Made by a program: the position numbers and the translations under genes. Below are positions 17,911 through 33,108 of a DNA stretch of 64,000 nucleotides, one piece after another; the stretch's first letter is position 1, and every line of letters starts with the position of its first letter. The notes under the pieces were generated by a model. The model did no database searches. It was given only the letters and a program-made list of their open reading frames with translations, and was not told the DNA's origin. This DNA is from Plasmodiophora brassicae (Eukaryota), in contig CP145419.1 in the NCBI GenBank assembly GCA_036867785.1, forward strand, positions 992,001-1,056,000. Reading direction: 5' to 3'.

Positions 17911-18311
17911 TCGACTGCACTGGCGAACTGCAGCCACGCAGAAAATGTGCGCGCAACGGAACTGCCCACCCGACCCGCCCCAATTGTCGACCAGCAGACC
18001 GACATGGCCCCTCTGCGGCGCTGCCCTCTTGTTGGCTGCTGCCTTAAGTGCGTTCCCGTCGCTCGTGCTGTCTACGCCCGGCCTGACGATGTACAGAAAA
18101 CCGCAGAACCTGCGGCGAAGCTGACCAGCGGCGGGGAGACCCGCGTCCGTATGTAGCTCACTCTCCATAACTTGCGGGAAGCGCTGCCCGTTGTCCATTG
18201 TCGGCGAAGGTGTGTCATCTGGTGCTACGCTGGTGAGCCTAGACTCAAGTCGCGGGCCTCCGGGTTCCCCAGGGTTCAATAAACCCGCTCGCGGCCGGAT
18301 AGATTTTACCT

Positions 18312-18391
18312 GGTTTAGCCAGTATCTCGCAGGGGATCAAATATGCCCGACGGTTTAGTCAGTATCTCGTAGGGGACCAAATATCTCCGAC
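18312..18391. repeat. 40-bp imperfect tandem duplication upstream of LRR gene
   Basis: ggtttagccagtatctcgcaggggatcaaatatgcccgac / ggtttagtcagtatctcgtaggggaccaaatatctccgac. Confidence 0.85.
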
Positions 18392-18429
18392 GATATTTAT
18401 CGTCTCGTGTGGCATTTCTGAAATCGATA

Positions 18430-20161
18430 TGTCGATGCGCATCGCAGCGGTGGTGGTGACAATGCTTGTCGTGGCGCAGGCGAACGTGTGCCGGTGGTAC
18501 CCGGGGAGTTGCAAGATGCAGGCCTGTAGCGTGTCGATCGTGCTGGATTCTCTGCCCATCACCTCCATCGACGCGTCCTGGTGGTCGCCCTCGTACGCGT
18601 CGATCATCACCAGCGTGTAGGCGTGTGTCAATCCAGTGGCCCCACTTCGTCTAACGTGTTTCCTATACAAAGGACCATCACGAATAACCCGTCGTTGACG
18701 AGCATCTCTGGATCTGCTTTCTCATCGCTGTCGAACTTGGTGACCCTGTATGTCGAGCCATACCGAAAACGGAGGCAGACGCTGATGGTGCCTGACAGCG
18801 ATCTACACGGGAACGCACTGCAGAGCCTACCATCGACGTCGTTCAGCGGTCTGACGCTGCTAACATCACTGTACGTAACGTTCCCGGACACGTCGCCGGC
18901 CACCAACGTCTGACAGACGTTAAAGGATGATTCAAGGGAATTACGCGACGTCGTTACCGCAAGCAATCTTCTCGCCGCTGACCAGTACTGTATCCATAAC
19001 GTACGCAAACGTTCTCCGGATCTGGAACCGTGATTAACTGGTTGCTCGGTCGCATCGGACAGGCTCGACCCAATGTCGAGCGGCACGAACGGCCAGCCGA
19101 CCGCGCACCTGCAGTGCCTGCCCAAGAAACCTTCCAAGGCGACCTACCTGTCAACCTCGAAACCGGCACCGAATTTCGCAAGCATGCCTCTGTGCCCAAT
19201 CGGTGGCATCACAACGTCCAAGTCCCGGTCGAGGCGTCCAGTGTCGACCCGCAAACCGACCACGTTGACCGGCAAACGTGTAACGAAACAGGCGACCGCT
19301 GTCAAGCGAACGTCGACGAAAAGGAGCACACGTGTAACGAAACAGGCGACTGCTGTCAAACGCACGTCAACGAAAAGGAGCGCAAGGTCGTCCAGCAGGG
19401 CTCGACTTGGCGTCGGCGTCACCCGTTCGCGTTCCAATCGTCGGGTGACGACACGAATGCCCAGCACCAGATCCAAACCACCTGCGAAGCGCACCACCAC
19501 GACGCCTGGCAAGAAGGCGACGACTGTCGTGGCAAAGCGGGTGACTGTTTTGAAACGGGCGTCGACGAAACCAGTCGGCGGTCACACGTCCAGCAAGGTT
19601 CCACCCGTTGGCCCGCACCCACCGACGGCACTTGCAACATCGGTCAAGACACCCGCGCCGACGTCGATAGGATCCACAGATACGCGCCCAGCGCCCCAAA
19701 TATCGTCGTCGAAAAGCCACCAGCAGGTGCCGCCGGTGACGCACGCTAGGACGATTCGTCGTACCATCGTACAACCCCCGCCCTCGCAACGTCAAACAAG
19801 TCATCCCGGCATCGGAGGCACAAAGACCGATGCGACGACGACGTTATCGGCCACTCCCCCGGCGTTGGTCGCCGTCGGTGCCGGGATCGTTGTCGTAAGC
19901 GTAATCGTGGCCGTCATCGCATGCCTTCGCCTTCGGTACGTCGCCGAGGGCCACCGTCGGAGGAAGAACATGACCATGTTCGCCGACAATATGGACGGCC
20001 GGCAGAACCCCGCTGCCACCAGCGAACCAACGCACCCGTCGCCGATCCACGATGCCAGCCCGGAGGCAATGCAGGATCCCGACACGTACAGGCATTCCAG
20101 CGTCATGTACGCTATCCCAGACGCGTTCAAAGTTCCCCAGTTCTTCCGCCCCGCGAAATAA
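18430..20161 (+). CDS. Type-I membrane LRR protein A (SP, LRRs, K/R/T-rich stalk, TM)
   Basis: SP MSMRIAAVVVTMLVVAQA; CRWYPGSC cap; single-LRR exons (LDLHGNALQSLPSTSFSGLTLLTSL); TM ALVAVGAGIVVVSVIVAVIACL; 54-bp repeat x2 near 19275-19383. Confidence 0.8.
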
Positions 20162-20296
20162 CGGTCAACGCTGTTCGGCTGGCGCTCCTTCACATAAACC
20201 CCCGATTGAGGGTCGCCACAACCGGCACGGGTCGTTTCACTGTTGGGCTTACGCGCACACATGCGCGTGCCAGGCAATGATTCATCATTGTCGAAA

Positions 20297-20956
20297 ATGT
20301 CCAGCATGATTGCTGTCGTGTCGCTGTTGCTGATCGTCGGGTGCTGCGCCGACTGCGGGTCGCTGGTCGTGAACAACTTCACGACGGAGACGCTGACGAA
20401 GAACGCGTTGGGCGAGCTGTCGGGCGAAGACGGGACGGCGCAGGCGGTCAGCATCCAGAGCGAGTACGGTCTCGTGATACAGACGGATGGCGCTCGCCAG
20501 ATGGCGTGGTACACCGACGTGAACGTGTCGTGCACGAACGTCACCGAGCAGCACGTGGACACGCTCCAGGTGACGTGGTCGGCCAGCTCCCTGACGAACG
20601 TCATCATCAACGCGCTGTGGGCCCCGGACGACGCCACGTGCATCAGTCGGACCTGGCAACGCGCCTCGCTGACCGATTCCGGCGGCCTGGGATCCAACTT
20701 CAAGACGTCGGTGCTGTCGCTGACGCCCGCTCAGATGCAACGCTTCCACGCCATCGAGGTCGTTGTCGCCCAGGGGCAGCCGGCCACGTCGCTGGTCATC
20801 AGCAAAGTCGCCCTGGTCGAGAGCCCGGCCTCTTGTTCCGCCCGAAACGCGGGTAAAGGAGGTGCCGCCGGTCGTAACGCTGCCACGATGTCGACCGTGA
20901 GCTCCGTCGGCATCTTCGTCGTGACCGTCGCCATCGCCGTCATCTTCACAAACTAA
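20297..20956 (+). CDS. Secreted, likely GPI- or tail-anchored surface protein
   Basis: SP MSSMIAVVSLLLIVGCCA; small-residue linker and terminal hydrophobic VGIFVVTVAIAVIFTN; intronless. Confidence 0.75.
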   Translation: MSSMIAVVSLLLIVGCCADCGSLVVNNFTTETLTKNALGELSGEDGTAQAVSIQSEYGLVIQTDGARQMAWYTDVNVSCTNVTEQHVDTLQVTWSASSLTNVIINALWAPDDATCISRTWQRASLTDSGGLGSNFKTSVLSLTPAQMQRFHAIEVVVAQGQPATSLVISKVALVESPASCSARNAGKGGAAGRNAATMSTVSSVGIFVVTVAIAVIFTN

Positions 20957-21180
20957 ACGAATAGGTACACGTCCCAAGGCCATTCTGTAAAGATGCCCAG
21001 CAGAGGCGCAGGTGCCGCTCGTCTCGTCGTCTCTCGTATTCTTAGGACACGCCTGCCCGTGGAGACTGGTTGCCGACGCCAGAGGAAACGTTGACGGAGA
21101 GTGATCAACATTAGTTATAAGGTCGGCAACGACGCGTGCGCCTGAAATATCTGGAGCGGTTAGGCGCGAATCTTCCGGCC

Positions 21181-22151
21181 ATGTGGACGATCGGTGCATG
21201 GGCTGTCGCCGTGTTCTCCTTGCGGGGCATCGCTGCAACGGCGCCGGCGCCTTGTAGCAGCTGCGTTATGAACGTGTCGACCGGCGCGTGCGGGGGTCCA
21301 TCCAACAACTATCAAAGCTGTACGAGGTCGTTTCGGCACTGGGTAGACGGTCTAATGATCCACTGGCCAGGCCCGGTTGGCGAATATTGCAGTGAATATG
21401 GATTGTAGGTTTTCGTCGACTGCCCTTTGCCATTGACGGTTAATTAACGGCGACGGTCCATAGGTGTGGGAACGGGTCCTTGTACTGTAATACGGAATCT
21501 CTGTGCCCAATAGCAATCGCAGCACCCGCATGCCCAGCAAAGAGGCTCCGGTCTGCCACGATCGGTCCAACTCCAGTGCTATCACGTGCGCCTGCTCCAG
21601 CAACTTTACGTACTCGGGCAGCTGCGAAATCGTCGCGAACGTTGTCTCGAACATTAATCGTGGCCCCGCTGTCCAAGCGCACCATGTCGACGTCACGCTC
21701 TGCTCCTGTTCCCTTATACGTCCAGCGAAGCTCGGCAGCTAGAGGAACCAGCCAGCTGGGCATGCACTCGACTTCCGTTGGACTGCCGCTGGCGGTTGAG
21801 CGGCCTGCGCAGGGGCGACATTCTGCTGGGTCCACTAACGCATCGACATCACTGTACTCGGTGACGGCTTGGACGGGACCTGTCTGGACGATACTATTGT
21901 TGGTCATTGTCCTCGTTGCGGGCGTGATGTTCGCAATCACGTACGTAATTTGTAAGATAGAATTCGGCGTACGGCAGCTGCAGCGAGCCGCGGCGGCGAC
22001 ACTGGAAACCGTTCCGGTGTCTGCCATGGAGCAGCAGTTCAGCAACGCAATGGATCGCACCTCATATATCAAGGCAGGCCCACACAATGCCCGCCAGCAC
22101 CACCCCCGCTACTTCTCCCCGAACAACGACGTATATGAACACAGTACATAG
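21181..22151 (+). CDS. Hevein/CBM18-like domain type-I membrane protein A (degenerate), 3 exons
   Basis: Exons 21181-21319, 21371-21404, 21464-22151 give SP + CGGPSNNYQSCPVGEYCSEYGLCGNGSLYC + S/T stalk + TM + YIKAGPHN tail. Confidence 0.82.
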
Positions 22152-22349
22152 TGCGTTCGGTCTACCTGAGCGTACGATCATTCAGCAGACGGGCTGGCTG
22201 GATACGAGTGGCATTTACGGGCAACTCTGCGAAGGTTCGCGCGTCGAGAGTTGTGAGGTGCGCCGGTCCTACCTGTCGCAGTGCGCAGTCTTTAGCACTA
22301 ACCGTGATCTGCCCGACGGGCGCACCCCCCCTCCGGAAAGTGCGATTTT

Positions 22350-22380
22350 TGGCAACGGCCCGCTCCGCGGGCCGTTGCCA
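22350..22380. repeat. Perfect 14-bp inverted repeat, 3-nt loop
   Basis: tggcaacggcccgc-tcc-gcgggccgttgcca. Confidence 0.9.
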
Positions 22381-22425
22381 CTCGCCACGCCGTAGCCGCC
22401 GCTTGACGACGGCAGGGCCACGGAC

Positions 22426-22582
22426 CGCGCGTGTCAACTACGCTTCGTCACGTTACGCTCGCTTCGCTTCGCGTCCCGTTCCTCGCGTTGCAGCGACGAT
22501 CGCGCGTGTCAACTACGCTTCGTCACGTTACGCTCGCTTCGCTTCGCGTCCCGTTCCTCGCGTTGCAGCGACGACCGCGCGT
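22426..22582. repeat. 75-bp tandem repeat, 2 near-identical copies
   Basis: cgcgcgtgtcaactacgcttcgtcacgttacg... at 22426 and 22501. Confidence 0.92.
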
Positions 22583-23052
22583 CGCGAAACACGGCCCCGC
22601 GCTGCGACGTCCTGTCACATGGCGGCTCCTGTCGTGCACCGTAACGATACACGGATGCATGCCACAGTCACGTCCCCCGCACCCTGATCCGACCAGCCCA
22701 CAACATGACGCCGTCACGAGGCGACCCGTCGACGCCCGCAAGCCAAGCGGAAACAGTAAACAGCGACGGTACCTTGCGTTCGATACTGCCGTCGTGTCGC
22801 TCATGGCGGTCGCGTAGCAGCGGCCGCAGTGGACACGGGAACGGTCAGACGTTCGCAATCGGCACGCGAATCGACTCTCGACGGAATGCGGACGTCCGAT
22901 CACCAGTCGCTAAGTTGTGCGCTGGCGCTCGCCTGGACGGTCTTGGACGTTTCCGGTCACCACCCTTGTGATGTGCCACCGGCAACAACAGCATTGGGCG
23001 CAGGCCTGAGCCTCCGTCCTCCTGTGTTGCCATGAAGTGGCGTCAACGCACC

Positions 23053-23124
23053 GCAAGTCCACTACTGTATCATCCGACGTGCGGGTCACTGCAAGTCCTG
23101 TACTGTATCATCCGACGTGCGGGT
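23053..23124. repeat. 34-bp direct repeat (38-bp period) just downstream of the recombinase stop codon
   Basis: gcaagtcc(ac/tg)tactgtatcatccgacgtgcgggt at 23053 and 23091. Confidence 0.9.
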
Positions 23125-23151
23125 GGTAAGTGGCGCACGACAGCCTCCTTC

Positions 23152-26100
23152 TTACAGGAGATGGCGTATCGTCCGGCGCAAGCTCTGGTAGTTTGTCGTG
23201 CACTTCCGGCGCTTGGCCCCCGCATGGCCCGGCTTGGCGCTTTGACGCCGAACCCATTGCACCAGGGCACCTTCCGCCTTCTGGAAATACATATTGACCT
23301 GCCGGGTCCATTCGGGCAGCGTCGCAGCGCCGGCGAGCGCCGGCGTTAGTGTCGGCGGCGGCACCATGCCGTCCGGCGTAAACCGCTGCGTCGACAGCAG
23401 ATCCCGCCAGAAACAGGCATCCGCGACACGCCGGCGACGGCTCTCCTCGCAGGCGGTCAGGTCGACCCCGTCCAGGTCGTTCACGAACGCGTACGTGGCT
23501 GCCTTCCACGCCGGCCACGACGGGTGCAATACAGCATCGATGCCATTGTCGCGGTCGTCACGGGTGCCTGACGTCGACACGGCTGCTGCGGCGTCGACCG
23601 TCTCAGACGGCGACGACGACGTCGTCGAGCATCTCGTGACGGGATCGGCGGTGGCGAGATCGGGCGCATGGGTGGCGGCGAGCTGGCCAGGTAGGTTGCC
23701 CTTAGCGGTCGCCATCTGGAGGGCGGTCGCGATGCTGTCCATCTTCTCGTCCAGCGCAGCGACCTTGGCCTCCAGTGATTCCATGAACGCAGTGACCGCC
23801 GGCGACAACGCCTGAACAGGTTCTGCCGCGCCCGATGATGATGATGATGATGATGGTGCCGGAGCGGCCCCGGTTGATTGTCGGAAGACGTGCGGGTTGT
23901 CCGAGCGGTGACTGGCAACGACCTCGGCTGACCAGCGGTCGACCGCGTCGACCGCTATACCGAGCTGGACGCAGACGTCGCGGACGCGCGCGACCATCAA
24001 ATGCTCCGCCCCTGTTGTCTCGCTTCGGAGGCCCTTCACGAACGCCCACCGACTCAGAAGCGCCGCTGTCAGGACGCGGACGACAGGCTTGGAAAGCGTC
24101 GGCGCCCTTGCAAAGAGCTGATCGCCGAACCGGACCCGCTGGGCCGTATCGTGATGGGCGGCGCCGCTGCTGATGCCGAGCGATGGAGCCACGATTTTCG
24201 GGTCGCCCGCCTTGGGGCAGTCGTGTCCCGCCGTCGTGCATGCGCCAATGTAGTCGGCGAACACGTCGTTGGACAACAGGTAATGTTCGTCGGCGGTGCG
24301 CGCGCGGGCCCAGCCGCCCCGGTACGCCCGAGCAGTGGACGACGCGCCGTACTGCTCCATGTCGACAGCCGCCGAGTGCCGGAACATGTGAGTCTTGGCC
24401 GTGTCCGGCGTCAGCAACGGGCCGAGCCCATCGGAGCCGGCCTGCTGGGCGTACCGCTTGAGCAGCGTCCCCACCGGTCCCGATCCTATCTGGGAGTCCA
24501 CGAGCGCGTCGCTAGCCGACCCGTTGACGGCGCACTGGAGCGCCGTCGCCAGCACCACGTCAAGCTCTGCGGTCAGGTCGAATACCGACCTGTGCTCCCG
24601 CGTGACGTTCGTCTACAAGTGAGAGTGTACAGGCTCGCTCAGAGCGCGTCGGGACGTCCTGCGGCGTCGGTTTACCTTGGGCCGGTAGATATCAACGGCG
24701 ATGCCACGGGCGAACGCATCGAACCGAATTCCGCTCAAGTGGACGGATGCGAGGTCGCTGATGCGGGTACAGAAATGCCGAGCCCACACGACGACGGCAT
24801 ACAAAGCGACGGACGACGACGTGTTCTCTCTGCATAATGCTCTGCGTCAGCCACGTCGTCGCAGCAGCAGGGGTCGACCGCGGTACAGCCACGTACAACA
24901 GCAGATGGCGGACGAAGCGCGCGTAAAGAGACCGATCCAGGGCCTGTGCCGGCTTGTGGTAGGGGCCTGCCAGGGACGTGGCGGGTCCCGGTGCGTTAGT
25001 TGATCACATGTGGCATCGGCGGCGGCACGAGGTCGCCTACGATTCTGAGCGTGCGCACGCGCCGTCAGGACCGCCCGAATCCTGCTTGTGATCTTGGTCA
25101 TGGCATCGCCGCGCTCGAGCGATACGACCTTCTCTCCGTTGAAGAAGTCGCGGGACAGCACCGCACGAGCCCCATGCAGGTACGCGATTGCCGTCGTGTC
25201 GGCCTTAATCGACGGCACATGGACTAGCATGTACTCGGCGAGGTTGGCCGCGAAGGTCGGCGTTATCAGCTCGCCCTGCGTCTTGCCCTGCAGGATCAGC
25301 TCCCGCAGGCGAGCAGGCGTCGCGAACGGGATGGCGTGCTCCGTGGCGTACGTGGCCACGTAGTCGAACAGCACCGAGGCACCCCTCCCGTTATGCTTGC
25401 GCGCGCTCACCGACGACCGGTGTAGTGTCAACGCGTTCCCCTGGCGCGTCAAGGAATCGGTCAGCACGAAGGCGCACCGGCGGCGCTGGCGAACGCTGGC
25501 GTACGGTGATCGCGGGACCTGACGGCGACGAAACGATCAGCGGATGCGGAGACGCTGTCGGCAGAGCATGCAGGAAGGACGACGACGGTGACAGTACAGG
25601 CGCACCCGCTGACGACGTCGGCGACGATGTACCGGCTGCCTGCTCCTGATGTAGCGAAACACGGCGTGGCGGTGGTCAGCAGGCGAATCGAACAGATTGG
25701 CCAGCCACGGGCGCGTACAGTTACGACGATGGCAGGCAACACGAGAGGCAACGGCACCGATGTCCCACCATCCTGCGACGCAGACAAGGGAGGCACCGGC
25801 GCAGACGTGCTCGACGATGCCGCCGCAGGCAGAGTCGCCAGTGACACCGACGACTCGATTTGGGCGATTGTCGACGACGTCAGGCTGCAGGTCTGCAGAG
25901 ACACGTAGTGAGATCGGGCGCCACAATGTAGAGCCAGCCTGGGCGTACCGAGACGACGATGGCGGGCAGCGCGCCAGGCGGCGGCGGCAATATTACTGAC
26001 GACGTCGGCGACGAAGGCGCCGCTAGCAACGATGCCGATGAGGGCGACGGCGTGGACGGCCTCGCTGGTGCAGGCAAAGTTGACGTGGACGGACCCTCTG

Positions 26101-26362
26101 GCGCAGGACTTGATGATGACGCCGGCGAGCGATCTGGGGCTGACGATGGCAGTGGATGGACCTGAAACGGAGCGACATGATGGTGGTCAGCAGACGCGAA
26201 CCGGCACGCACGGCAGCACAGGCGCAGCACCGATGTCGCGGGCAGAAGGACCGCGGCCGTCGCCGGCGGCCGGACAGGAGACGGACCGCGAATGAACCGG
26301 GGTTGGCGACGACGACTAACGACAGCCGGAGCTGGCACAGACGGCTGCTTCGGCGCTGGCGC

Positions 26363-26399
<37 letters not shown>

Positions 26400-26410
26400 C
26401 CTGGGACCAT
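23152..26410 (-). mobile_element. Crypton-like tyrosine recombinase gene (intron-containing); 5' start and element ends uncertain
   Basis: Removing introns 24967-25040, 24842-24896 and 24613-24675 joins the ORFs in frame: FCTRISDL (R), RPKTN (K), KTHMFRH (HxxR), GGW (W), EHYL (Y). No reverse transcriptase nearby. Confidence 0.75.
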
Positions 26411-26725
26411 GGCGGATACCGAACTGCAGCTCCTGACAGTGCACACACGCCCGGTCAGACATGGCGACGGGGTATCCGCCTGGCGACTGCAATTTGTAAC
26501 ACCCTGGCGGGACGGGGGCGCCAACGGGTCCGAAAACGCATTGGCACACTGGCGCGCGTGGCCCTGGGTGTAACGGGGGTTGGGGGGGGGGGGGGGGGGG
26601 GGGCTGACTGCTGACGTCTCCCTCTCCACTTACGCAGTGAACTGCAACTGCGCCGTTCGGGCAGTTCTGGGGCAGCTGCGGGGCGGCTGATCGGTTATAT
26701 ACCAGTGTCTGCAGCCACCGACGTT

Positions 26726-27692
26726 ATGGGCGGTGCGAACATCCCCAGTGCTCTGCTCGCGATCGGTCTCACAGCTGGCATCGTCGGTGCCCTTACGCTA
26801 CGGTCCAGCGACGCCGTTGACCATACGGTCAACACCTCGGCGGCCGGCGAGCACTCCGATGTCCTGAAATACATCGTCGATGATCTGGGCGAGAGGGACG
26901 ACCCCGTCGTCCTGCCCGTTATTGCCGATGACGAGCTTGCGCTGATCGTCGAGTTTATTACCGCAACCGTAGCCCATGAGGTATTCGCAGGCAGGTTGGT
27001 CGTCCCCGGTACACGAGTCTGTAAACACGTCTTCCGTATAGGGCGATCAGGGCGCCCGGTGGGCCAGGGATAGACTCAACCAGACAGGGCTCGCGACGCA
27101 ATGTCGACTTCTCGTCGCCGCCAACTTCCTCGATATGCACTCGCTTATGAGCGCAGTCATGTCGCTGAAGCGCACGTGGCGAGATATTGCCGCGATACGC
27201 GACATGAAGTGCATGCACCCGCAGGTCTTCCCGATCGTCGTGGATTACGCTCCATGCATTATAAGGCTTGTTCAGATCGCTGCCTCGCAGATACAGGTGT
27301 CGATCGTCAACTGGATTCGCGATCGTCTCATAACCGGAGGCAATGTCACTGTAATCAATAACCAACGCTGGGATAAGACTGACCCCCTGTTGAACTGGGC
27401 AGCATGGAATAACGAGGAGCTTGTCGTCCGATTCCTGTTGAGCGCCCCAGGGATCGACGTCAACGCACGTAATTCCTTTGGCTGGACACCTTTGCACTGT
27501 GCCGCCGCTTATGGATATCAAGACATCGTCGCATTGCTATTAAGCGCTCCCGACGTCGACGTCGATGCGCGAGACGATCTCCAGATGACGCCGCTGATGA
27601 CTGCAGGTCCCCATCGTGGCATCGGCAACCTGCTCGTTAAGGCACGCCGGCAGACGCTGGGGCGTTATCTCATGCGATGGAGGACCAACTGA
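26726..27692 (+). CDS. Secreted SKP1/BTB-like + ankyrin repeat protein (candidate effector), 2 exons
   Basis: SP MGGANIPSALLAIGLTAGIVGA; LTLRSSD...VVLPVI...LALIVEF; spliced LLVAANFLDM (SKP1 signature); ankyrins LLNWAAWNN, GWTPLHCAAAYG, MTPLMTA. Confidence 0.85.
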
Positions 27693-27903
27693 TACAAAGC
27701 ACGCCTATCTGCGTTAGTACTCTTCCATCATCCGCGTATCGACCGGTGATCGGAAGGGGCCAATAACGAGGTTGTACTTGTAGGCGGCGACTGAATCATC
27801 AGGTTAGAAAGGCGTTAGGGGAAGATACGACAGGGTCGGTTTCCCGAGATACGCGGTGTACTTCTGAGATTTATGGTGTGGCTGCGTGCCGACGGCGAAT
27901 TTA

Positions 27904-28859
27904 ATGGGGACGGCCAGCTGGGTCGCCGTGGGCAATAGCCTGTCGGTACTGCTGTGTTGCGTCGTGGTGGTCGGGGCGGCACCGGTGCCCTGCAGTAACC
28001 CTGTCGTGAATACCACCACGGGAGAGTGTGGCGGCCAGAACCACAACTACCAAAGCTGTACGTGCGTTTGGACGTTCCGTTCTCCCCTGAAGTGCTTCGT
28101 GATATTCACGCACTTGACCAGGCGAACCTGGCAAATGCTGCAGCCAATACGGCTAGTACGTCGTAATCGCATCACGGTTTGCACACGTTCGTAGCATTGA
28201 CCGATACGTACTGCAGCTGTGGAAACACCACCACATATTGCAACGCGATGTCGATGTGCCCAGCAGCAACCGCACCCCCGACGATATCAGCACCAACGTT
28301 TACGTCGTCACTGCCCGCAGCGCCGACCCCCAAGTCACCCAATTCTCGACCGAGCACGCCGCCAAGACGGCGGACATCGCAGACGAACCCGTCGCCGAAA
28401 CCGCCGCCTTCTCCAGCTCCTCGAACGCCTCCGCAATCCCCAACGGCGCCGATCGCGAAACGCGTCACGACCCATGTGGCGCCGCTACCATCCCTTCCGA
28501 CGGCGCCTCCCCAGAGGCAACAGCCAGCATCGGCGGACGCGCCGCCGACGTGGTACGCCCAGACGTTGTGGGACGTGCCAGTCTGGATCGTTGTCGTCAC
28601 CATCGTGCTCACGTTCGTCGCGATCGCCCTAGTCTGCAAGATAGAACCGTGCCTGCGACCTCAGCAACAGCAGGTGCCGACCTACCCACCAACCGGACGG
28701 GCGGCCGCAATACCCATCAACCCGTCCTGGGCACCAGTGCGCTCGCCTGTCCATCTACAGTTTGTCCCAGGTGCCAGCGGCGGCGTGCAGAGCCGATCCA
28801 TGCAGTACATTCGAGCCGGTCCGCACAACGTTCCACAGAACCAAACTGCCTACTTCTAG
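27904..28859 (+). CDS. Hevein/CBM18 chitin-binding type-I membrane protein B, 3 exons
   Basis: Exons 27904-28057, 28122-28155, 28217-28859 give SP + CGGQNHNYQSCEPGKCCSQYGYCGNTTTYC + P/T stalk + TM + YIRAGPHN tail. Confidence 0.87.
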
Positions 28860-28947
28860 CAATCCTGTGGCCGAACGAACCCACGATCTAGGGAATGTTT
28901 TGTTTTACTGTACAGTACATAAATAGGAGGCGTTGACATGTGCGTCG

Positions 28948-29361
28948 TCATTCGATGGCGATGTAGTTGGAGGTCGGCGTGCCTTCCCGCTTAGGAATGT
29001 CGACGAACAGCATGCCGTTCTCGTACTTGGCGGTGACCTGATCCGCGTTGATGTTCTTCGGCAGGCGGATCGAACGCGACGTCTGGCCGTAGATGCGTTC
29101 CGAGAAGTGGACATGCTCCTTCTCGCCGACCTTCTCCTCCTTGCGTTCGGCCGACACCGTCAGGACCCCGTTCTCAATCTTCAGCTTGACGTCATCCTTC
29201 GACGTCCCCGGCGTTTCAACCGTCAGCGCGTACGACTTGTCCTTCTCCTTGAACTCCATCTTCAGCACGGGCGCCTGTACCGCGTCGCCCGGCTGCCGTG
29301 GCATCAGGCGGCGCTCGAACGGCGTCGTGTCGAACAGCGAGTCCCACAGCTGCAGCGACAT
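28948..29361 (-). CDS. Small heat-shock protein (HSP20/alpha-crystallin domain)
   Basis: ETPGTSKDDVKLKIENGVLTVSAERK...ERIYGQTSRSIRLP...AKYENGMLFVDIPK. Confidence 0.95.
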   Translation of the reverse strand: MSLQLWDSLFDTTPFERRLMPRQPGDAVQAPVLKMEFKEKDKSYALTVETPGTSKDDVKLKIENGVLTVSAERKEEKVGEKEHVHFSERIYGQTSRSIRLPKNINADQVTAKYENGMLFVDIPKREGTPTSNYIAIE

Positions 29362-29468
29362 TGGTGTTGGTTGATGCTCTTCTTCCTTCTCCCGCTTCTC
29401 CTCGATCACTTTGAAGTTTTTCTGTTTGACCGTGCAGTCACCTGATCCGCCCCATAACAACAACCGCG

Positions 29469-29673
29469 GAACATTCCCAGGAACGTTCTTGCGGGGTGTG
29501 ACTCGGAACATTCTCTGCGAACATTCCCACGCAGATTTTTGCTCGGAATGTTCCCCGGACAGCGCGAGCTGCATTCCGGGGGCGCGGCGTTCTTGCGGGG
29601 GCGTGACTCGGAACATTCTGATTTCTGTGCGAACGTCCCCCCCCCCCCCCCCAGTTTTTTGCTCGGAATGTTC
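29469..29673. promoter_or_regulatory. Heat-shock element array (7 perfect GAAnnTTC) in the divergent HSP20/GRHPR promoter
   Basis: GAAnnTTC at 29469, 29481, 29506, 29519, 29546, 29611, 29666. Confidence 0.85.
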
Positions 29674-29740
29674 CCGGACTGCGCGAGCTGCATCCCGGGG
29701 GCCGCGCATGTCCGGTGCGGGGTCCGCACGTCGTTTCGGC

Positions 29741-31004
29741 ATGCGCGTGCTGGTCACGCGCCGCCTGCCGCCCGGCGCGCACGGCCGTCTCGTCGGCTTG
29801 GCGGCGTCGCAAGGGTCCACGTCGTGTCGTCGCACTGTCGCGGGACCCCGAAAATAATGGTCGACGCCGACGTGTAGGTTCGAGGTCGACCTGTGGGATC
29901 ACGACGCGCCCGCGATCCCACGCGGTCAGCTTCTGGAACGCGTCCGCGGGTGCCACGGCGCGCTCGTCCTGCTGACCGACCGGGTCGACGAGGAACTCCT
30001 CGACGCGGCGGGTACGTGGCGTGGGCCCAGGAGCCGTTAGCGGATCCCAGGCTGACCAAATTGCCACAGGGCCGCAACTGGCTGTCGTATCGACCATGTC
30101 GGTCGGGTTCGACCACATCGACATCGGCAGTTGCCGGCGGCGTGCCATCCGAATCGGGACGACGCCGGACGTGCTGACGGACGCGACCGCCGACCTGACC
30201 GTCGGCCTCCTCATCGCCGTCCTTCGCCGATTCCAACCCGCCATGCGAGCGGCCCGTGACGGAAGCGTACGTGCCGCCTGATGATGATGATGATGACGTC
30301 GTGTCGCGGACGAATCACTGTGTTGTACGCCAATAGTGGGGGATCTGGAGCCCCACCTGGATGTGCGGGTCCGACCTGCGAGGTAAAACGATCGGCCTGA
30401 TCGGCATGGGACGGATCGGCGCCGCCGTCGCTGACCGCCTGGCTCCATTCAAGACAGGTGCGTACGGGGGACCTCGTTTGCGTCCCGTTCCCGCTAACGG
30501 TCGTCTGTTCAGGTCCGATTCAGTATTGTAGCAGAAGCGAGAAGCGGGCCCTCCCGCATCGGTTCGTGTCGTTGGAGGACCTCCTGCGCACGTCCGACAT
30601 TGTCATCGTGACCTGCGCGCTGTCGGACGACACGCGCGCCCTGATCACGATGGCCCAGCTGACGCTGATGAAGCGGACGGCGTTCCTGATCAACACGGCT
30701 CGCGGGCCGATCGTGAACGCGCACGATCTGGCGCTGGCTCTGCGTCAGGGTGTCATTGCGGGCGCGGGCCTCGACGTCACCGACCCGGAGCCGATCCGTC
30801 CGGATGACCCTCTGCTCTCGCTCGACAACTGCCTAATCCTTCCCCATGGTCGGTCGCACGGCTGGATGACAGCGTCGCGCTGACCGACCTCGCGTAGTCG
30901 GGAGCGCCACCATGGAGACTCGGGAGGCCATGGCGAACCTGGCGATCGATAACCTGTTCGCGGCGCTGCAAGGCAGACCGATGCCGGCCGAGCTGCGCCC
31001 CTGA
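29741..31004 (+). CDS. GRHPR: Glyoxylate/hydroxypyruvate reductase (D-2-hydroxyacid dehydrogenase), multi-exon
   Basis: MRVLVTRRLP, MSVGFDHID, TPDVLTDATAD, GLIGMGRIG, INTARG, GLDVTDPEP, LPH. Confidence 0.9.
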
Positions 31005-31057
31005 ACAATGCACGGTGCACACGTCTCGCCCCCCCAGACGACCCTACTGTGCTCTGT

Positions 31058-33108
31058 TTATCGGATCAGCGCCACGCGTCCAAGCTGGAGCCGGGGCGGG
31101 GGCGGCGCCGCCCGTTGCGCCGCCTGATTCGGCACGACGTCGTCGGGGTGCAGGTCGCCCGGTGCGACGGCCGGCGGCGTCGTCGGGTTCTTGCAATTCG
31201 GCACGCGGCACTCCTGCTCGGAATGCTTGCGACAGGCGCCGCAGGTCGTGCACCAGACGCTCGCGTCCGGCAGCTCGCTCGTGCAGATCGTGCACGCCCA
31301 CATCTCCTGCTCGTCGTCCGCCTCGCTCAGCAGGCGGACGCCATCGTCGCCCTCGCCGCACGCCTCGAACACGCGCTTGCCGAAGTGGCGGACGGCGCCG
31401 CCGATCCGGACAATGTCGTCGAGGTTGCCCATCTCGTCGGCCGCCAGCAGCCCCTGCAGCTTCTCTGCCAGGCTCTCCAGGACGCCCTGCTGGTGCTCGA
31501 GCAGGCGCTTGCGCGGCCCGCCCTCCATGTAGTACGCCAGGCAGTACGTCCACGACAGGCCGCGGCGGACGACCTCCAGGCTCTCGACGACCGGCAGCAA
31601 TCGCTCGTCGGTGCCGCCGTCGAACCGCTCGCGTATCCTGACGATCTCCTTCTCGGCCTGCACCTGATGCATGTACCTGTTGAAATAGAACAGGTACCTG
31701 GGTTGACGCTACTGATCAGGTCGCCGGGAACGAGTGCACACGTGTGTGTGTGGCCTACTTCTGAAGCTGTTGTGTCGCATCGGCGCTCTCGTCGGCGGAT
31801 CCGTCCGCGTTGGCCACGCTGCTGTCCGCCTCGTAGATGTTGCACCGGTAGAACCCGAAGCGCTCGACGTCGTGGCTCGACCAGGACTTCTTGCTGGACG
31901 TGGAGCGACGACATGTCAGCCACCACAGGGGCGTTGCCGGGCATCGGGCGCGTACGTACCAGAGCCAGCAGAAGTGGTGCGCACAATTCGAGCATCTGTT
32001 GGGGGGTTCCAGGTCAGCCACCAGTGAAGTGTGTATGTGTGTGTGCACCCTACATCATGTGGTTGCAGGCCTTGTTCTTCTCGATACGGATCTACAAATA
32101 GCGGGGGGACGCGCCCCGTCAGGGGTCCGATTCCTGCGTCCCCGCCGACGAGCTTACGTTGCAATTTGGGCACGCCTTCGTCCTCGACCTGATCCACAGC
32201 GACGTTTCCGCATCGCTCTGCGTCCGCGCGAGCCACCGGGTGACCAGGTCGCAGGGCGCGGGGCGATGGTCGCCCAGTTCGCAGCCGAAGCAGAACGACG
32301 CCTTGCAGAGACAGGTGATGACCTCGCCCGGGTTGCCGCATTCGACGGCGAACTCGCACGATGGCCGGATGCACCACTTGAGCGCGCGTGACCCTGCGCC
32401 ACCCGTCAGCGCGCGACAAGGTGCGGCACGCCCGACGTCCCGCACCTTCGACGAAGGCGTTCCCCAGCCACCGCCTGTACTTTGTGGCTCCCGCCGGTGT
32501 CAGGAACCGCAGGAACAGCCGGGATGGCACCTGCAAGGGCCTGCTCAGCCCGATGACGACGCGGACACGCGCCCGCGTCCGCGTTCTCCTACCTGCAGAT
32601 GGCACTTAACGAACCGTGATGCGCTGTCCTGACTTCCGCCGGGGCACTTGGTGTAGATGCAGGACCGGCCCTTGGAGAACGCCGACCTGACCAGCCCTGT
32701 CCAGCAGTCGTTGCAGAACGTGTGCCCGCACGACAGCGTTGTCGAACTGGCCGGGTCGGTGGGCCCGCAGTACGCCGTCCCACAGACGACGACGTTCCCG
32801 TTCGACGCGGGCGCCGCGCCCCGGACCAGATCCGGGTCGGTCAGGAACGCGTCCTGCAGGTCGGCCGGTCGCCAGCGGAACCGCCCCAGGAGCGTCTCCG
32901 CGACATCGTCGCTGACCGCGAGCGATTCCACGACGCGCTCGATCGCATTCTGCCTGCGCGCGTCGACATCGGCCCGGGTCAGGACGCGAAACGCGGCCGG
33001 CGCCCCTGCCAAATGATCGCCGTCGCAGGCGTTCGCGTCGTCCGCGTCGGACGACCACCCGGCCGCGTCCAGCTCCAGCACATGGTCTTCCTCGACGTAC
33101 GCGGGCAT
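31058..33108 (-). CDS. Ariadne-family RBR E3 ubiquitin ligase with C-terminal RanBP2-type Zn finger, multi-exon
   Basis: CGHTFCNDCW, IBR CLCKASFCFGC...HRPAPC, TKACPNC, IEKNKACNHM, RRGLSWTY, WACTICT...CTTC. Confidence 0.9.

What the first reader, a model, noticed from the sequence alone, without database searches (positions are those of the whole stretch)
23152..26410. Intron-containing Crypton-like tyrosine recombinase with an apparently intact catalytic set, inside a surface/effector cluster
Seen: three apparently broken ORFs join in frame through canonical host-style introns. The product carries R (TRISDL), K (PKTN), HxxR (THMFR), W (GGW) and Y (EHYL), with no RT/RNaseH. Established: this architecture defines Crypton DNA transposons and their domesticated Ndc10/Gcr1-like derivatives. 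Inference: either a potentially active Crypton or a domesticated recombinase. It lies between the two hevein paralogs and head-to-head with the SKP1-ANK gene, so it could drive local rearrangement.
Basis: partly seen in the sequence, partly recalled or inferred. Interest (0 to 1): 0.7.

Follow-up and report, generated by a model that had tools for sequence, protein, structure and literature searches.

The report
Expressed Crypton-like recombinase in clubroot pathogen
This is a real, transcribed and correctly spliced gene of the clubroot pathogen Plasmodiophora brassicae for a Cre-like tyrosine recombinase with all catalytic residues, most likely the last intact copy of a small, old family of Crypton-type mobile DNA.

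Summary
Window 23152-26410 (-) is PBRA_007750 of Plasmodiophora brassicae, publicly named 'Tyr recombinase domain-containing protein'. Contigs of three RNA-like runs from three studies show seven GT..AG introns; a DNA run shows none. That gives 8 exons and an open 930-aa product. Both public models are partly wrong. Pfam Phage_integrase scores above its cut-off. A profile alignment to P1 Cre pairs R415, K444, H519, R522 and W545 with Cre R173, K201, H289, R292 and W315; Y555 follows at Cre-like spacing. No RT or RNase H is present. HMMER over 1.84 billion proteins found relatives only in P. brassicae: degraded or core-less copies on other contigs and one 31%-identical paralog. ESM-Atlas neighbours are oomycete and diatom proteins, some labelled Ndc10 or GCR1_C (a lead only). 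Best reading: a low-copy Crypton-like element, present mobility unproven. Ndc10/Gcr1-type domestication does not fit, because the catalytic set is intact. Element ends are unresolved. One DNA contig joins 22316 to 26684. No evidence supports local rearrangement.

The parts
26231..26410 (-). Exon 1 (aa 1-60), ATG at 26410; start of the Ser/Pro-rich N-terminal region
   Evidence: RNA joint 26159->26229 (cut +2) in X15, X16 and X18; GT..AG checked; CDS built
25949..26161 (-). Exon 2 (aa 61-131). Public model P0002 reads this DNA in another frame
   Evidence: The reading frame matches paralog P0001 and model P0010
25719..25892 (-). Exon 3 (aa 132-189). The intron before it (25948-25893) is missing from P0002
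   Evidence: Joint 25892->25949 in all three RNA-like runs
25505..25645 (-). Exon 4 (aa 190-236), end of the Ser/Pro-rich region (S 59, P 47, A 33 of 236 residues)
25041..25440 (-). Exon 5 (aa 237-370), helical N-terminal (core-binding-like) domain
   Evidence: Atlas alignments to XerD-like clusters with Phage_int_SAM_1 start at P0002 aa 262 (a lead)
24897..24966 (-). Exon 6, 70 nt, in a different frame from the three long ORFs
   Evidence: Joints 24829->24897 and 24965->25040 in three runs
24676..24829 (-). Exon 7, holding catalytic R415 (24765-24763) and K444 (24678-24676, the last codon)
   Evidence: aligned to Cre R173 and K201
23152..24612 (-). Exon 8 with the stop codon. It holds H519 (24390-24388), R522 (24381-24379), W545 (24312-24310) and Y555 (24282-24280). 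It also holds the post-catalytic extension, a low-complexity stretch, and a conserved C-terminal ~125 aa with a KRRK motif
   Evidence: The C-terminal domain is 70-72% identical to P0001, P0007 and P0008 over the 162 aa aligned
23086..23086 (-). Possible poly(A) addition site, 66 nt after the stop
   Evidence: One X18 contig carries a loose TTTTTTTT before 23086. This is a weak, single-contig hint
26411..26725 (.). 315-bp divergent intergenic region shared with the Skp1_POZ-ankyrin gene; holds a poly-G run at about 26582-26604
22317..26683 (.). Candidate mobile unit (4367 bp), provisional. It spans the gene, 273 bp upstream of it and 835 bp downstream of it
   Evidence: One contig of DNA-like run X2 joins 22316 to 26684 (3 shared letters, CGG; shorter side 21 nt; depth 33). 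X2 flank contigs stop at about 22321 and start at 26681
22296..22316 (.). 21 nt left of the candidate unit that recur elsewhere, joined to 26684 onward
   Evidence: joint side 21; loose ends before 22295/22296 in X16 and X18; unique in the window
26684..26704 (.). 21 nt right of the candidate unit; other contigs diverge after 26704
   Evidence: loose ends behind 26704 in X15 and X18; unique in the window
22423..22582 (.). Tandem repeat, 75 nt x 2.1, inside the candidate unit downstream of the gene
23049..23124 (.). Tandem repeat, 38 nt x 2, just after the stop codon and spanning the possible poly(A) site

Best explanation
The locus is the one intact, expressed copy of a small, old, species-restricted family of Crypton-type elements, that is, DNA transposons encoding only a tyrosine recombinase (YR). 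The 930-aa protein has five regions. They are a disordered Ser/Pro-rich N-terminus, a helical core-binding-like domain, a Cre-like catalytic domain, a helical extension, and a conserved basic C-terminal domain of unknown fold. The extension also appears in the distant paralog and, judging by the Atlas structural matches, in oomycete and diatom relatives. What follows on mechanism is inferred from the YR family, not shown here. R415, K444, H519, R522 and W545 would activate the scissile phosphate, and Y555 would form the 3'-phosphotyrosine link. Recombination between short identical core sequences would excise the unit as a circle and reinsert it. The sequence and its transcription show that the gene exists, is spliced, is open and keeps the full catalytic set. 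Family membership at the Crypton level is inferred, and so is any present-day mobility. I put mobility at no more than about one in four.
For: The gene is P. brassicae PBRA_007750. All 7 introns appear in each of 3 RNA-like runs from 3 studies and in 0 of 1 DNA-like run laid. The 930-aa frame is open. PF00589 scores 34.7 bits against a cut-off of 27.1, covering profile positions 17-169 of 172. hhalign of profile A1 to P1 Cre pairs R, K, H-x-x-R and W colinearly with Cre R173, K201, H289, R292 and W315. There is no RT, RNase H or other domain in P0002 or in the 25 other ORFs. The family looks like a transposon family. phmmer over 1,835,955,588 proteins gave 3 hits at E<=0.001, and all three are P. 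brassicae. P0001, P0008 and P0009 keep the N- and C-terminal parts but lack the YR core. P0005 continues in a second reading frame relative to the window gene. P0003 is an 83-aa fragment 86% identical. P0007 and P0008 come from one assembly, lie on different contigs, and are 95% identical (205 of 215). P0004 is a 31%-identical paralog that keeps R, K, R, W and Y. The Atlas structural neighbours (TM 0.73-0.81 over aa 264-710) are oomycete and diatom clusters. One is named Ndc10 and one has GCR1_C in 71% of its members. Bacterial XerD-like clusters align only over aa 262-574 (a lead). Kojima & Jurka 2011 describe CryptonS of oomycetes and diatoms as YR-only, without GCR1_C, with a conserved C-terminal region and very low copy numbers (passages). 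One DNA contig joins the two flanks of a 4367-bp unit.
Against: No near-identical full-length copy is known; the paralogs are 67-87% identical at protein level. In run X2 the gene has the same depth as its flanks (about 36 against 38), so the joined contig is another locus and not an empty allele. All 14 DNA-like or untyped rows of 5 studies hold 91-95% of the words. That listing can only show holders. The candidate ends share only 3 nt (CGG). No 4-6-bp terminal direct repeat in register was found, and no TATGG except one at 26725 over the neighbour's ATG. The inverted similarity of the outer arms is matched by 7% of random pairs. Seven host-type introns, a shared divergent promoter region and an in-frame 9-nt variant at 23938 in X15 all look like an ordinary host gene. 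The hhalign probability to Cre is only 6% (E 0.0061), and Y555 lies outside the aligned block. No Crypton sequence was available, so no direct alignment or tree was made.
Confidence: 0.5

Rival explanations
1. A host-retained (domesticated) recombinase that is still catalytically competent. On this reading a former element gene is now fixed at this locus and used by the cell for a site-specific DNA transaction or a DNA-binding role. The other copies are decaying remnants.
For: The gene has seven host-type introns and is spliced in 3 of 3 RNA-like runs. It lies head-to-head, 315 bp from a Skp1_POZ-ankyrin gene. It is annotated in three assemblies (accessions) and held by every DNA-like row listed. 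Apart from the 9-nt in-frame variant, no letter difference was listed inside exons in the four runs laid. It is the only intact close copy. A second intact, diverged paralog (P0004) is also annotated in three assemblies.
Against: The known Crypton domestications (Ndc10/Cbf2, Gcr1, DUF3504 genes) lost the catalytic residues (passages), whereas here all are kept. No ortholog was found outside P. brassicae among 1.84 billion proteins, so there is no sign of long-term conservation across taxa. Core-less copies on two contigs are 95% identical, which suggests family spread not long ago.
Confidence: 0.27
2. A transcribed but functionally dead relic. The frame and motifs survive by chance or recent origin, and the protein no longer recombines DNA.
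For: All other close family members are degraded. No recent full-length copies are known. Expression level cannot be judged from contigs.
Against: The 2793-nt frame is open across 8 exons with every catalytic residue intact. The one indel variant seen is in frame. The C-terminal domain is conserved between copies.
Confidence: 0.15
3. A tyrosine recombinase of another origin: the integrase of an integrated virus or polinton-like element, or a DIRS/Ngaro-type YR that lost its reverse transcriptase.
Against: No capsid, RT, RNase H or other domain appears in the unit or in the ORFs around it. The flanks are ordinary spliced host genes. The Atlas neighbours are YR-only eukaryotic clusters, not viral ones.
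Confidence: 0.05

Closest known systems
CryptonS elements of oomycetes and a diatom (Kojima & Jurka 2011, PMC3212892; passages read)
   Same: Both encode only a tyrosine recombinase. Both lack GCR1_C, have a conserved C-terminal region of their own and occur at very low copy number. The nearest Atlas clusters, by structure and by features, are oomycete and diatom proteins.
   Different: No sequence-level match was found by HMMER. No 5-6-bp terminal direct repeats and no TATGG ends were found. The host is a rhizarian. The gene has seven introns and a 236-aa Ser/Pro-rich N-terminus.
CryptonF elements and their yeast derivatives Ndc10/Cbf2 and Gcr1
   Same: An Atlas feature hit (0.97) goes to an NDC10_II cluster, and one structural neighbour is named 'Ndc10 domain-containing'.
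   Different: There is no Pfam NDC10_II or GCR1_C match. Ndc10 and Gcr1 have lost the catalytic site, whereas this protein keeps it.
Cre recombinase of phage P1
   Same: The catalytic set is the same, including Trp in place of the second His. R-K-H-R-W align colinearly, and Tyr follows Trp by 10 residues against 9 in Cre.
   Different: The hhalign probability is only 6%. This is a eukaryotic nuclear gene with introns, an added N-terminal disordered region, a post-catalytic extension and a C-terminal domain. Its target site is unknown.
DUF3435 tyrosine recombinases of ascomycetes (I recall these as the 'Captains' of Starship elements; that link comes from no call)
   Same: An Atlas feature hit of 0.95 goes to a DUF3435 cluster.
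   Different: There is no Pfam DUF3435 match. The candidate unit is 4.4 kb with one gene and no cargo.
DIRS and Ngaro YR retrotransposons
   Same: They are eukaryotic mobile elements that use a tyrosine recombinase.
   Different: They carry RT and RNase H; none is present here.

Membership tests
Tyrosine recombinase superfamily (Pfam PF00589 catalytic domain) | Match to the family HMM above its curated cut-off | tested here: met
   P0002 scores 34.7 bits against a cut-off of 27.1, E 2e-8, aa 420-584 on profile positions 17-169 of 172. Exon 8 alone falls below the cut-off at 22.2 bits. Paralog P0004 also falls below it at 18.7 bits.
Tyrosine recombinase superfamily (Pfam PF00589 catalytic domain) | Catalytic R, K, H-x-x-R, H/W and Y in colinear order | tested here: met
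   R415, K444, H519, R522 and W545 pair with Cre R173, K201, H289, R292 and W315. Y555 lies outside the aligned block but 10 residues after W, against 9 in Cre.
Tyrosine recombinase superfamily (Pfam PF00589 catalytic domain) | The YR fold | tested here: inconclusive
   My own AlphaFold2 model was unusable (mean pLDDT 36.6). PDB sequence searches gave nothing. The Atlas's own model aligns to XerD-like clusters at TM 0.51-0.54 (a lead).
Crypton DNA transposons | The YR is the only enzyme; no RT, RNase H or DDE transposase | tested here: met
   P0002 has only PF00589 at E<=1. None of 25 other ORFs of 100 aa or more in 21961-26723 has a Pfam family at E<=0.01.
Crypton DNA transposons | No long terminal inverted or direct repeats | tested here: met
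   No long repeat pair brackets the gene within 18000-32000. The similarity of the arms is not beyond chance. The ends themselves are not established.
Crypton DNA transposons | Short (4-6 bp) direct repeats at the two ends (TATGG in most CryptonS) | tested here: not met
   At the only candidate ends (22316/22317 and 26683/26684) just 3 nt (CGG) are shared in register. The single TATGG is at 26725. The candidate ends may be wrong, and animal Cryptons lack such repeats.
Crypton DNA transposons | Several genomic copies with the same ends in different flanks | not testable with these tools
   No genome is held for this window. Only protein models of paralogs on other contigs could be seen.
Crypton DNA transposons | The YR groups with Crypton YRs in alignment or tree | not testable with these tools
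   No tool returned a Crypton sequence. The Atlas neighbours are leads only.
Domesticated Crypton derivatives (Ndc10/Cbf2, Gcr1, DUF3504 genes) | Catalytic residues lost | tested here: not met
   The full catalytic set is present. The loss in the derivatives is stated in PMC3212892.
Domesticated Crypton derivatives (Ndc10/Cbf2, Gcr1, DUF3504 genes) | Match to the NDC10_II, GCR1_C or DUF3504 models | tested here: not met
   None at E<=1 on P0002. None at E<=10 on the C-terminal parts.
Domesticated Crypton derivatives (Ndc10/Cbf2, Gcr1, DUF3504 genes) | Conserved single-copy orthologs across related taxa | tested here: not met
   No homolog was found outside P. brassicae. Element genes are often left out of annotations, so absence is weak evidence.
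DIRS/Ngaro retrotransposons | RT and RNase H beside the YR | tested here: not met

The most novel reading that the evidence does not exclude
A still-active, site-specific Crypton lineage in Rhizaria. On this reading the 4367-bp unit 22317-26683 sits inside a short sequence (22296-22316 plus 26684-26704) that also exists uninterrupted elsewhere in the genome. The core-less copies (P0001 type, 95% identical on two contigs) would be non-autonomous derivatives moved in trans by this one intact recombinase. That would make it a eukaryote-native, Cre-like site-specific recombinase with a defined natural target.
Probability: 0.12. Interest if true: 0.7.

Novelty: new member of a known kind. Interest (0 to 1): 0.45.

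Why it matters
Kojima & Jurka 2011 (passages read) list Cryptons from fungi, oomycetes, a diatom and animals. My searches for Crypton with Plasmodiophora, 'Plasmodiophora brassicae' with 'tyrosine recombinase' (0 papers) and Crypton with Rhizaria found nothing relevant. Of the ten listed I opened one, where the word was in a citation title for an Entamoeba organelle, and judged the other nine from their titles and abstract openings alone. An intact, expressed member in a rhizarian plant pathogen would extend the range of this rare transposon class. It would also give a tractable candidate: one gene with a full catalytic set, and degraded and core-less relatives for comparison. That candidate could test whether Cryptons really move through circular intermediates. 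It bears on genome plasticity in the clubroot pathogen only if mobility is shown. A practical by-product is that both public gene models for this locus need correction.

Tried and rejected
- **Whole genome:** none is held for this window. Copy number, element ends and empty sites could therefore not be searched at DNA level.
- **Structure, recombinase part:** AlphaFold2 on the 455-aa stretch with a 3-row alignment gave mean pLDDT 36.6.
- **Structure, C-terminal part:** AlphaFold2 on the last 162 aa with a 4-row alignment gave mean pLDDT 44.0. Neither model was fit for a fold search, so none was run.
- **PDB by sequence:** the A1 profile and P0002 gave no recombinase hit.
- **Word-seeded profile search with A1:** only the same three P. 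brassicae proteins came back.
- **Metagenome scans:** a scan for relatives and one for the 21-nt left flank found nothing.
- **C-terminal domain:** there was no Pfam hit at E<=10 and no usable Atlas hit.
- **RNA genes at the candidate ends:** none was found. There is no tRNA in the window, and Rfam gave only a chance-level match at 24277-24350.
- **Palindromic target site:** I thought the 21-nt outer flanks formed one, but 7% of random 30-mer pairs score as high, so I dropped the idea.
- **Loose end behind 22325:** I first read it as another element copy. It resumes with window sequence (TGCG, 22341 onward), so it looks like a local variant of the poly-C stretch at the same locus.
- **Loose-end contexts:** 0 of 6 motifs taken from them occur in the 64-kb window.
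- **Sequencing runs:** no listed holder is on record as RNA. The three runs are called RNA-like here only because their contigs carry the spliced joints.
- **Depth peaks in X2 at 22068-22334 and 26607-26873:** these may mean repeated sequence, but the depth table sums contigs and is not a copy number, so I draw no count from it.
- **hhalign to lambda Int:** weak, E 0.15, and it covers only part of the domain.
Full report
**What is there.** The window is GC-rich eukaryotic DNA. The 486-aa ORF 23152-24612 (-) is 100% identical to the end of P0002. P0002 is a 955-aa protein of Plasmodiophora brassicae (CEP00016.1, PBRA_007750), publicly named 'Tyr recombinase domain-containing protein'. The recombinase label therefore already exists as an automatic annotation. 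I found no paper that discusses the gene. The searches were Crypton with Plasmodiophora (2 papers, neither relevant by title and abstract) and 'Plasmodiophora brassicae' with 'tyrosine recombinase' (0 papers). A third search was Crypton with Rhizaria (10 listed, none relevant by title or abstract opening). I opened one of those ten, where 'crypton' was in a citation title for an Entamoeba organelle.

**Gene structure.** I mapped P0002 onto the window and read its six predicted introns. I then laid contigs of four public runs on 21000-29000.
- Three RNA-like runs from three studies (X15, X16, X18) each carry seven joints inside the gene with GT..AG ends on the minus strand.
- The DNA-like run X2 carries none of them.
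- Five joints agree with P0002.
- Two disagree. The first intron is 69 nt (26230-26162), not 50 nt. A 56-nt intron (25948-25893) is missing from P0002.
- With the seven RNA-supported introns (checked) the CDS has 8 exons, 2793 nt and 930 aa, with no internal stop.
- It equals the first 930 residues of a second public model, P0010 (1144 aa). P0010 then wrongly reads on past the stop.
- P0002 shares only its first 61 and last 799 residues with the RNA-supported product. The stretch between is read in a wrong frame.
- The correct frame is also the one conserved in paralog P0001.
- The introns are 56-74 nt. The spliced introns of the two neighbouring genes are 51-71 nt, so 'host-style' is fair.
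- One X18 contig ends in a T-run before 23086. This hints at a poly(A) site 66 nt after the stop.

**The protein.**
- Pfam Phage_integrase (PF00589) matches P0002 above its curated cut-off. The score is 34.7 bits against 27.1, E 2e-8, over nearly the whole profile. No other family appears at E<=1.
- A profile of the core and two relatives (A1) aligned to P1 Cre by hhalign gives a weak score (E 0.0061, probability 6%). The alignment is nonetheless colinear.
- In it TRISDL pairs with Cre LLRIAEI, RPKT with RTKT, THMFRHSAAVDM with GHSARVGAARDM, and GGWA with GGWT.
- In the Cre translation these are R173, K201, H289, R292 and W315.
- The tyrosine (EHY, Y555) lies 10 residues after the Trp, against 9 in Cre.
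- Lambda Int aligns only weakly.
- There is no RT, RNase H or any other domain in P0002. None appears in 25 other ORFs of 100 aa or more across 21961-26723.

**Other regions of the protein.**
- The first 236 residues are Ser/Pro/Ala-rich.
- The last ~125 residues are the best-conserved part between copies.
- That C-terminal part matches nothing in Pfam or the Atlas.

**Relatives.** HMMER read 1.84 billion representative proteins with the 455-aa core and found three hits at E<=0.001. All three are P. brassicae proteins. A word-seeded profile search found the same three. The family in this species is:
- the window gene, annotated in three assemblies;
- P0001, P0008 and P0009 (PBRA_004599), which keep the N-terminal region and the C-terminal half (67% identity) but lack the whole recombinase core;
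- P0007, a second copy of that C-terminal half, which is on another contig of the same assembly as P0008 and 95% identical to it (205 of 215);
- P0003, an 83-aa fragment 86% identical to the core-binding region;
- P0005, whose match to the window switches reading frame just before the H-x-x-R motif;
- P0004 and P0006 (PBRA_003013), a 31%-identical paralog. It keeps R, K, R, W and Y, has Ser where the first His stands, and shares the post-catalytic extension.

One intact copy, several decayed or core-less copies on different contigs, and no ortholog elsewhere is the pattern of a transposon family. It is not the pattern of a conserved host gene.

**Which kind of element.** The ESM Atlas holds this protein with its own model (pTM 0.46).
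- For aa 264-710 its nearest structural clusters are eukaryotic, at TM 0.73-0.81. They come from oomycetes and diatoms. One is named 'Ndc10 domain-containing', and one has GCR1_C in 71% of its members.
- Bacterial XerD-like clusters align only over aa 262-574, at TM about 0.52.
- By features the nearest clusters are oomycete 'core-binding domain' proteins, diatom proteins, an NDC10_II cluster, an ALOG/Phage_integrase cluster and a DUF3435 cluster.

All of these are leads, not tests. They point the same way: the YR-only Crypton superfamily, and within it the stramenopile type. Kojima & Jurka 2011 (passages read) describe CryptonS of oomycetes and a diatom as follows:
- it is YR-only;
- it lacks GCR1_C;
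- it has its own conserved C-terminal region;
- its copy number is very low;
- it has 5-6-bp terminal direct repeats, mostly TATGG.

The first four points fit. The fifth does not. The same paper states that the domesticated derivatives (Ndc10/Cbf2, Gcr1, DUF3504 genes) have lost the catalytic site. Here the site is complete, and no NDC10_II, GCR1_C or DUF3504 match appears. That form of domestication is therefore not what this is. I could not align the protein with real Crypton sequences, because no tool returned any.

**Ends and mobility.** No genome is held for the window, so this part rests alone.
- In DNA-like run X2 one contig joins 22316 directly to 26684. It has 3 shared letters (CGG), 21 nt on the shorter side and depth 33.
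- The X2 contigs for the flanks stop at about 22321 and start at 26681.
- The skipped 4367 bp hold the whole gene, 273 bp upstream of it and 835 bp downstream of it, including two tandem repeats.
- In X2 the gene has the same depth as its flanks (about 36 against 38). The joined form must therefore be a second locus, not an empty allele.
- Similarity on its left side starts only at 22296.
- RNA-like contigs also diverge before 22295/22296 and behind 26704 into sequences not found in the window.
- Position 22296 follows an AG, and 26704 precedes a GT. The short shared sequence could thus be a conserved small exon of paralogous genes rather than a transposon target. I cannot tell which.
- The apparent inverted symmetry of the two 21-nt flanks is not beyond chance.
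- There is no tRNA or known RNA gene at the ends.
- Fourteen DNA-like or untyped rows of five studies hold 91-95% of the locus words. That search lists only holders, so it cannot show absence.

**Context.** The gene lies head-to-head with a Skp1_POZ plus ankyrin gene (ATG 26726). The two flanking membrane-protein genes resemble each other only weakly (tblastx). Their 'hevein' label was not confirmed by Pfam on the ORF pieces tested. By eye, Cys-rich stretches split by introns could be such a domain. Nothing suggests that the recombinase has rearranged this neighbourhood.

**Verdict.** The gene is real, expressed, correctly spliced and catalytically complete. The most likely reading (0.5) is a resident copy of a low-copy Crypton-like element, the first noted in a plasmodiophorid as far as my searches reach. 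Current mobility is unproven. A host-retained but still catalytic recombinase (0.27) and a transcribed relic (0.15) remain open. This is a new member of a known kind and of moderate interest. The interest would rise if the joined-flank sequence proves to be an unoccupied specific target.

Noticed in passing
window 25719-26410: Both public protein models of this gene are partly wrong. P0002 (CEP00016.1) uses a 50-nt first intron and misses the 56-nt intron, so its residues 62-156 are read in a wrong frame. P0010 (SPQ99054.1) has the right N-terminus but reads 214 aa past the stop into antisense of the neighbouring gene.
   Followed up: yes
window 22296-22316 and 26684-26704: In DNA-like run X2 these two 21-nt stretches stand side by side in one contig at single-copy depth. 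RNA-like contigs diverge exactly before 22296 (which follows an AG) and after 26704 (which precedes a GT). This could be an unoccupied target, a conserved 42-nt exon of paralogs, or a short dispersed repeat.
   Followed up: partly
window 22326-22340: Runs X16, X18 and X2 carry about 10 other letters in place of the window's poly-C-containing 15 nt, and X18's 14-letter loose end then resumes with window sequence. This looks like an isolate polymorphism in the 3' part of the left gene's transcript.
   Followed up: partly
window 22335-22601 and 22545-23440: RNA-like contig depth is higher over the 75-nt tandem repeat (22423-22582) than over either neighbouring gene. One X16 contig runs unspliced from 22545 to 23440, across the recombinase stop codon. 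This may be an unannotated transcript or a long 3' UTR; the strand is unknown.
   Followed up: no
window 23938: One X15 contig lacks 9 nt here. This is an in-frame three-codon variant in the post-catalytic extension, near aa 669.
   Followed up: partly
P0004/P0006 (PBRA_003013), not in the window: A second, 31%-identical tyrosine-recombinase paralog in the same species, annotated in three assemblies. It has Ser where the first catalytic His stands and the same post-catalytic extension. It falls below the Pfam cut-off at 18.7 bits.
   Followed up: partly
window 21877-21945 and 22163-22215: The left neighbour gene shows different splice joints between runs: 21877->21943 in X15 against 21893->21945 in X16 and X18. 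It also has an intron after the stop codon of its long ORF (22149-22151).
   Followed up: no
window 26425-26440: An X2 loose end behind 26438 repeats the local motif GTGCAGCTCCTGACAGTG. This suggests a length-variable short tandem repeat just upstream of the recombinase ATG.
   Followed up: no
window 26582-26604: A G-run of about 23 nt sits in the 315-bp divergent intergenic region between the recombinase gene and the Skp1-ankyrin gene.
   Followed up: no
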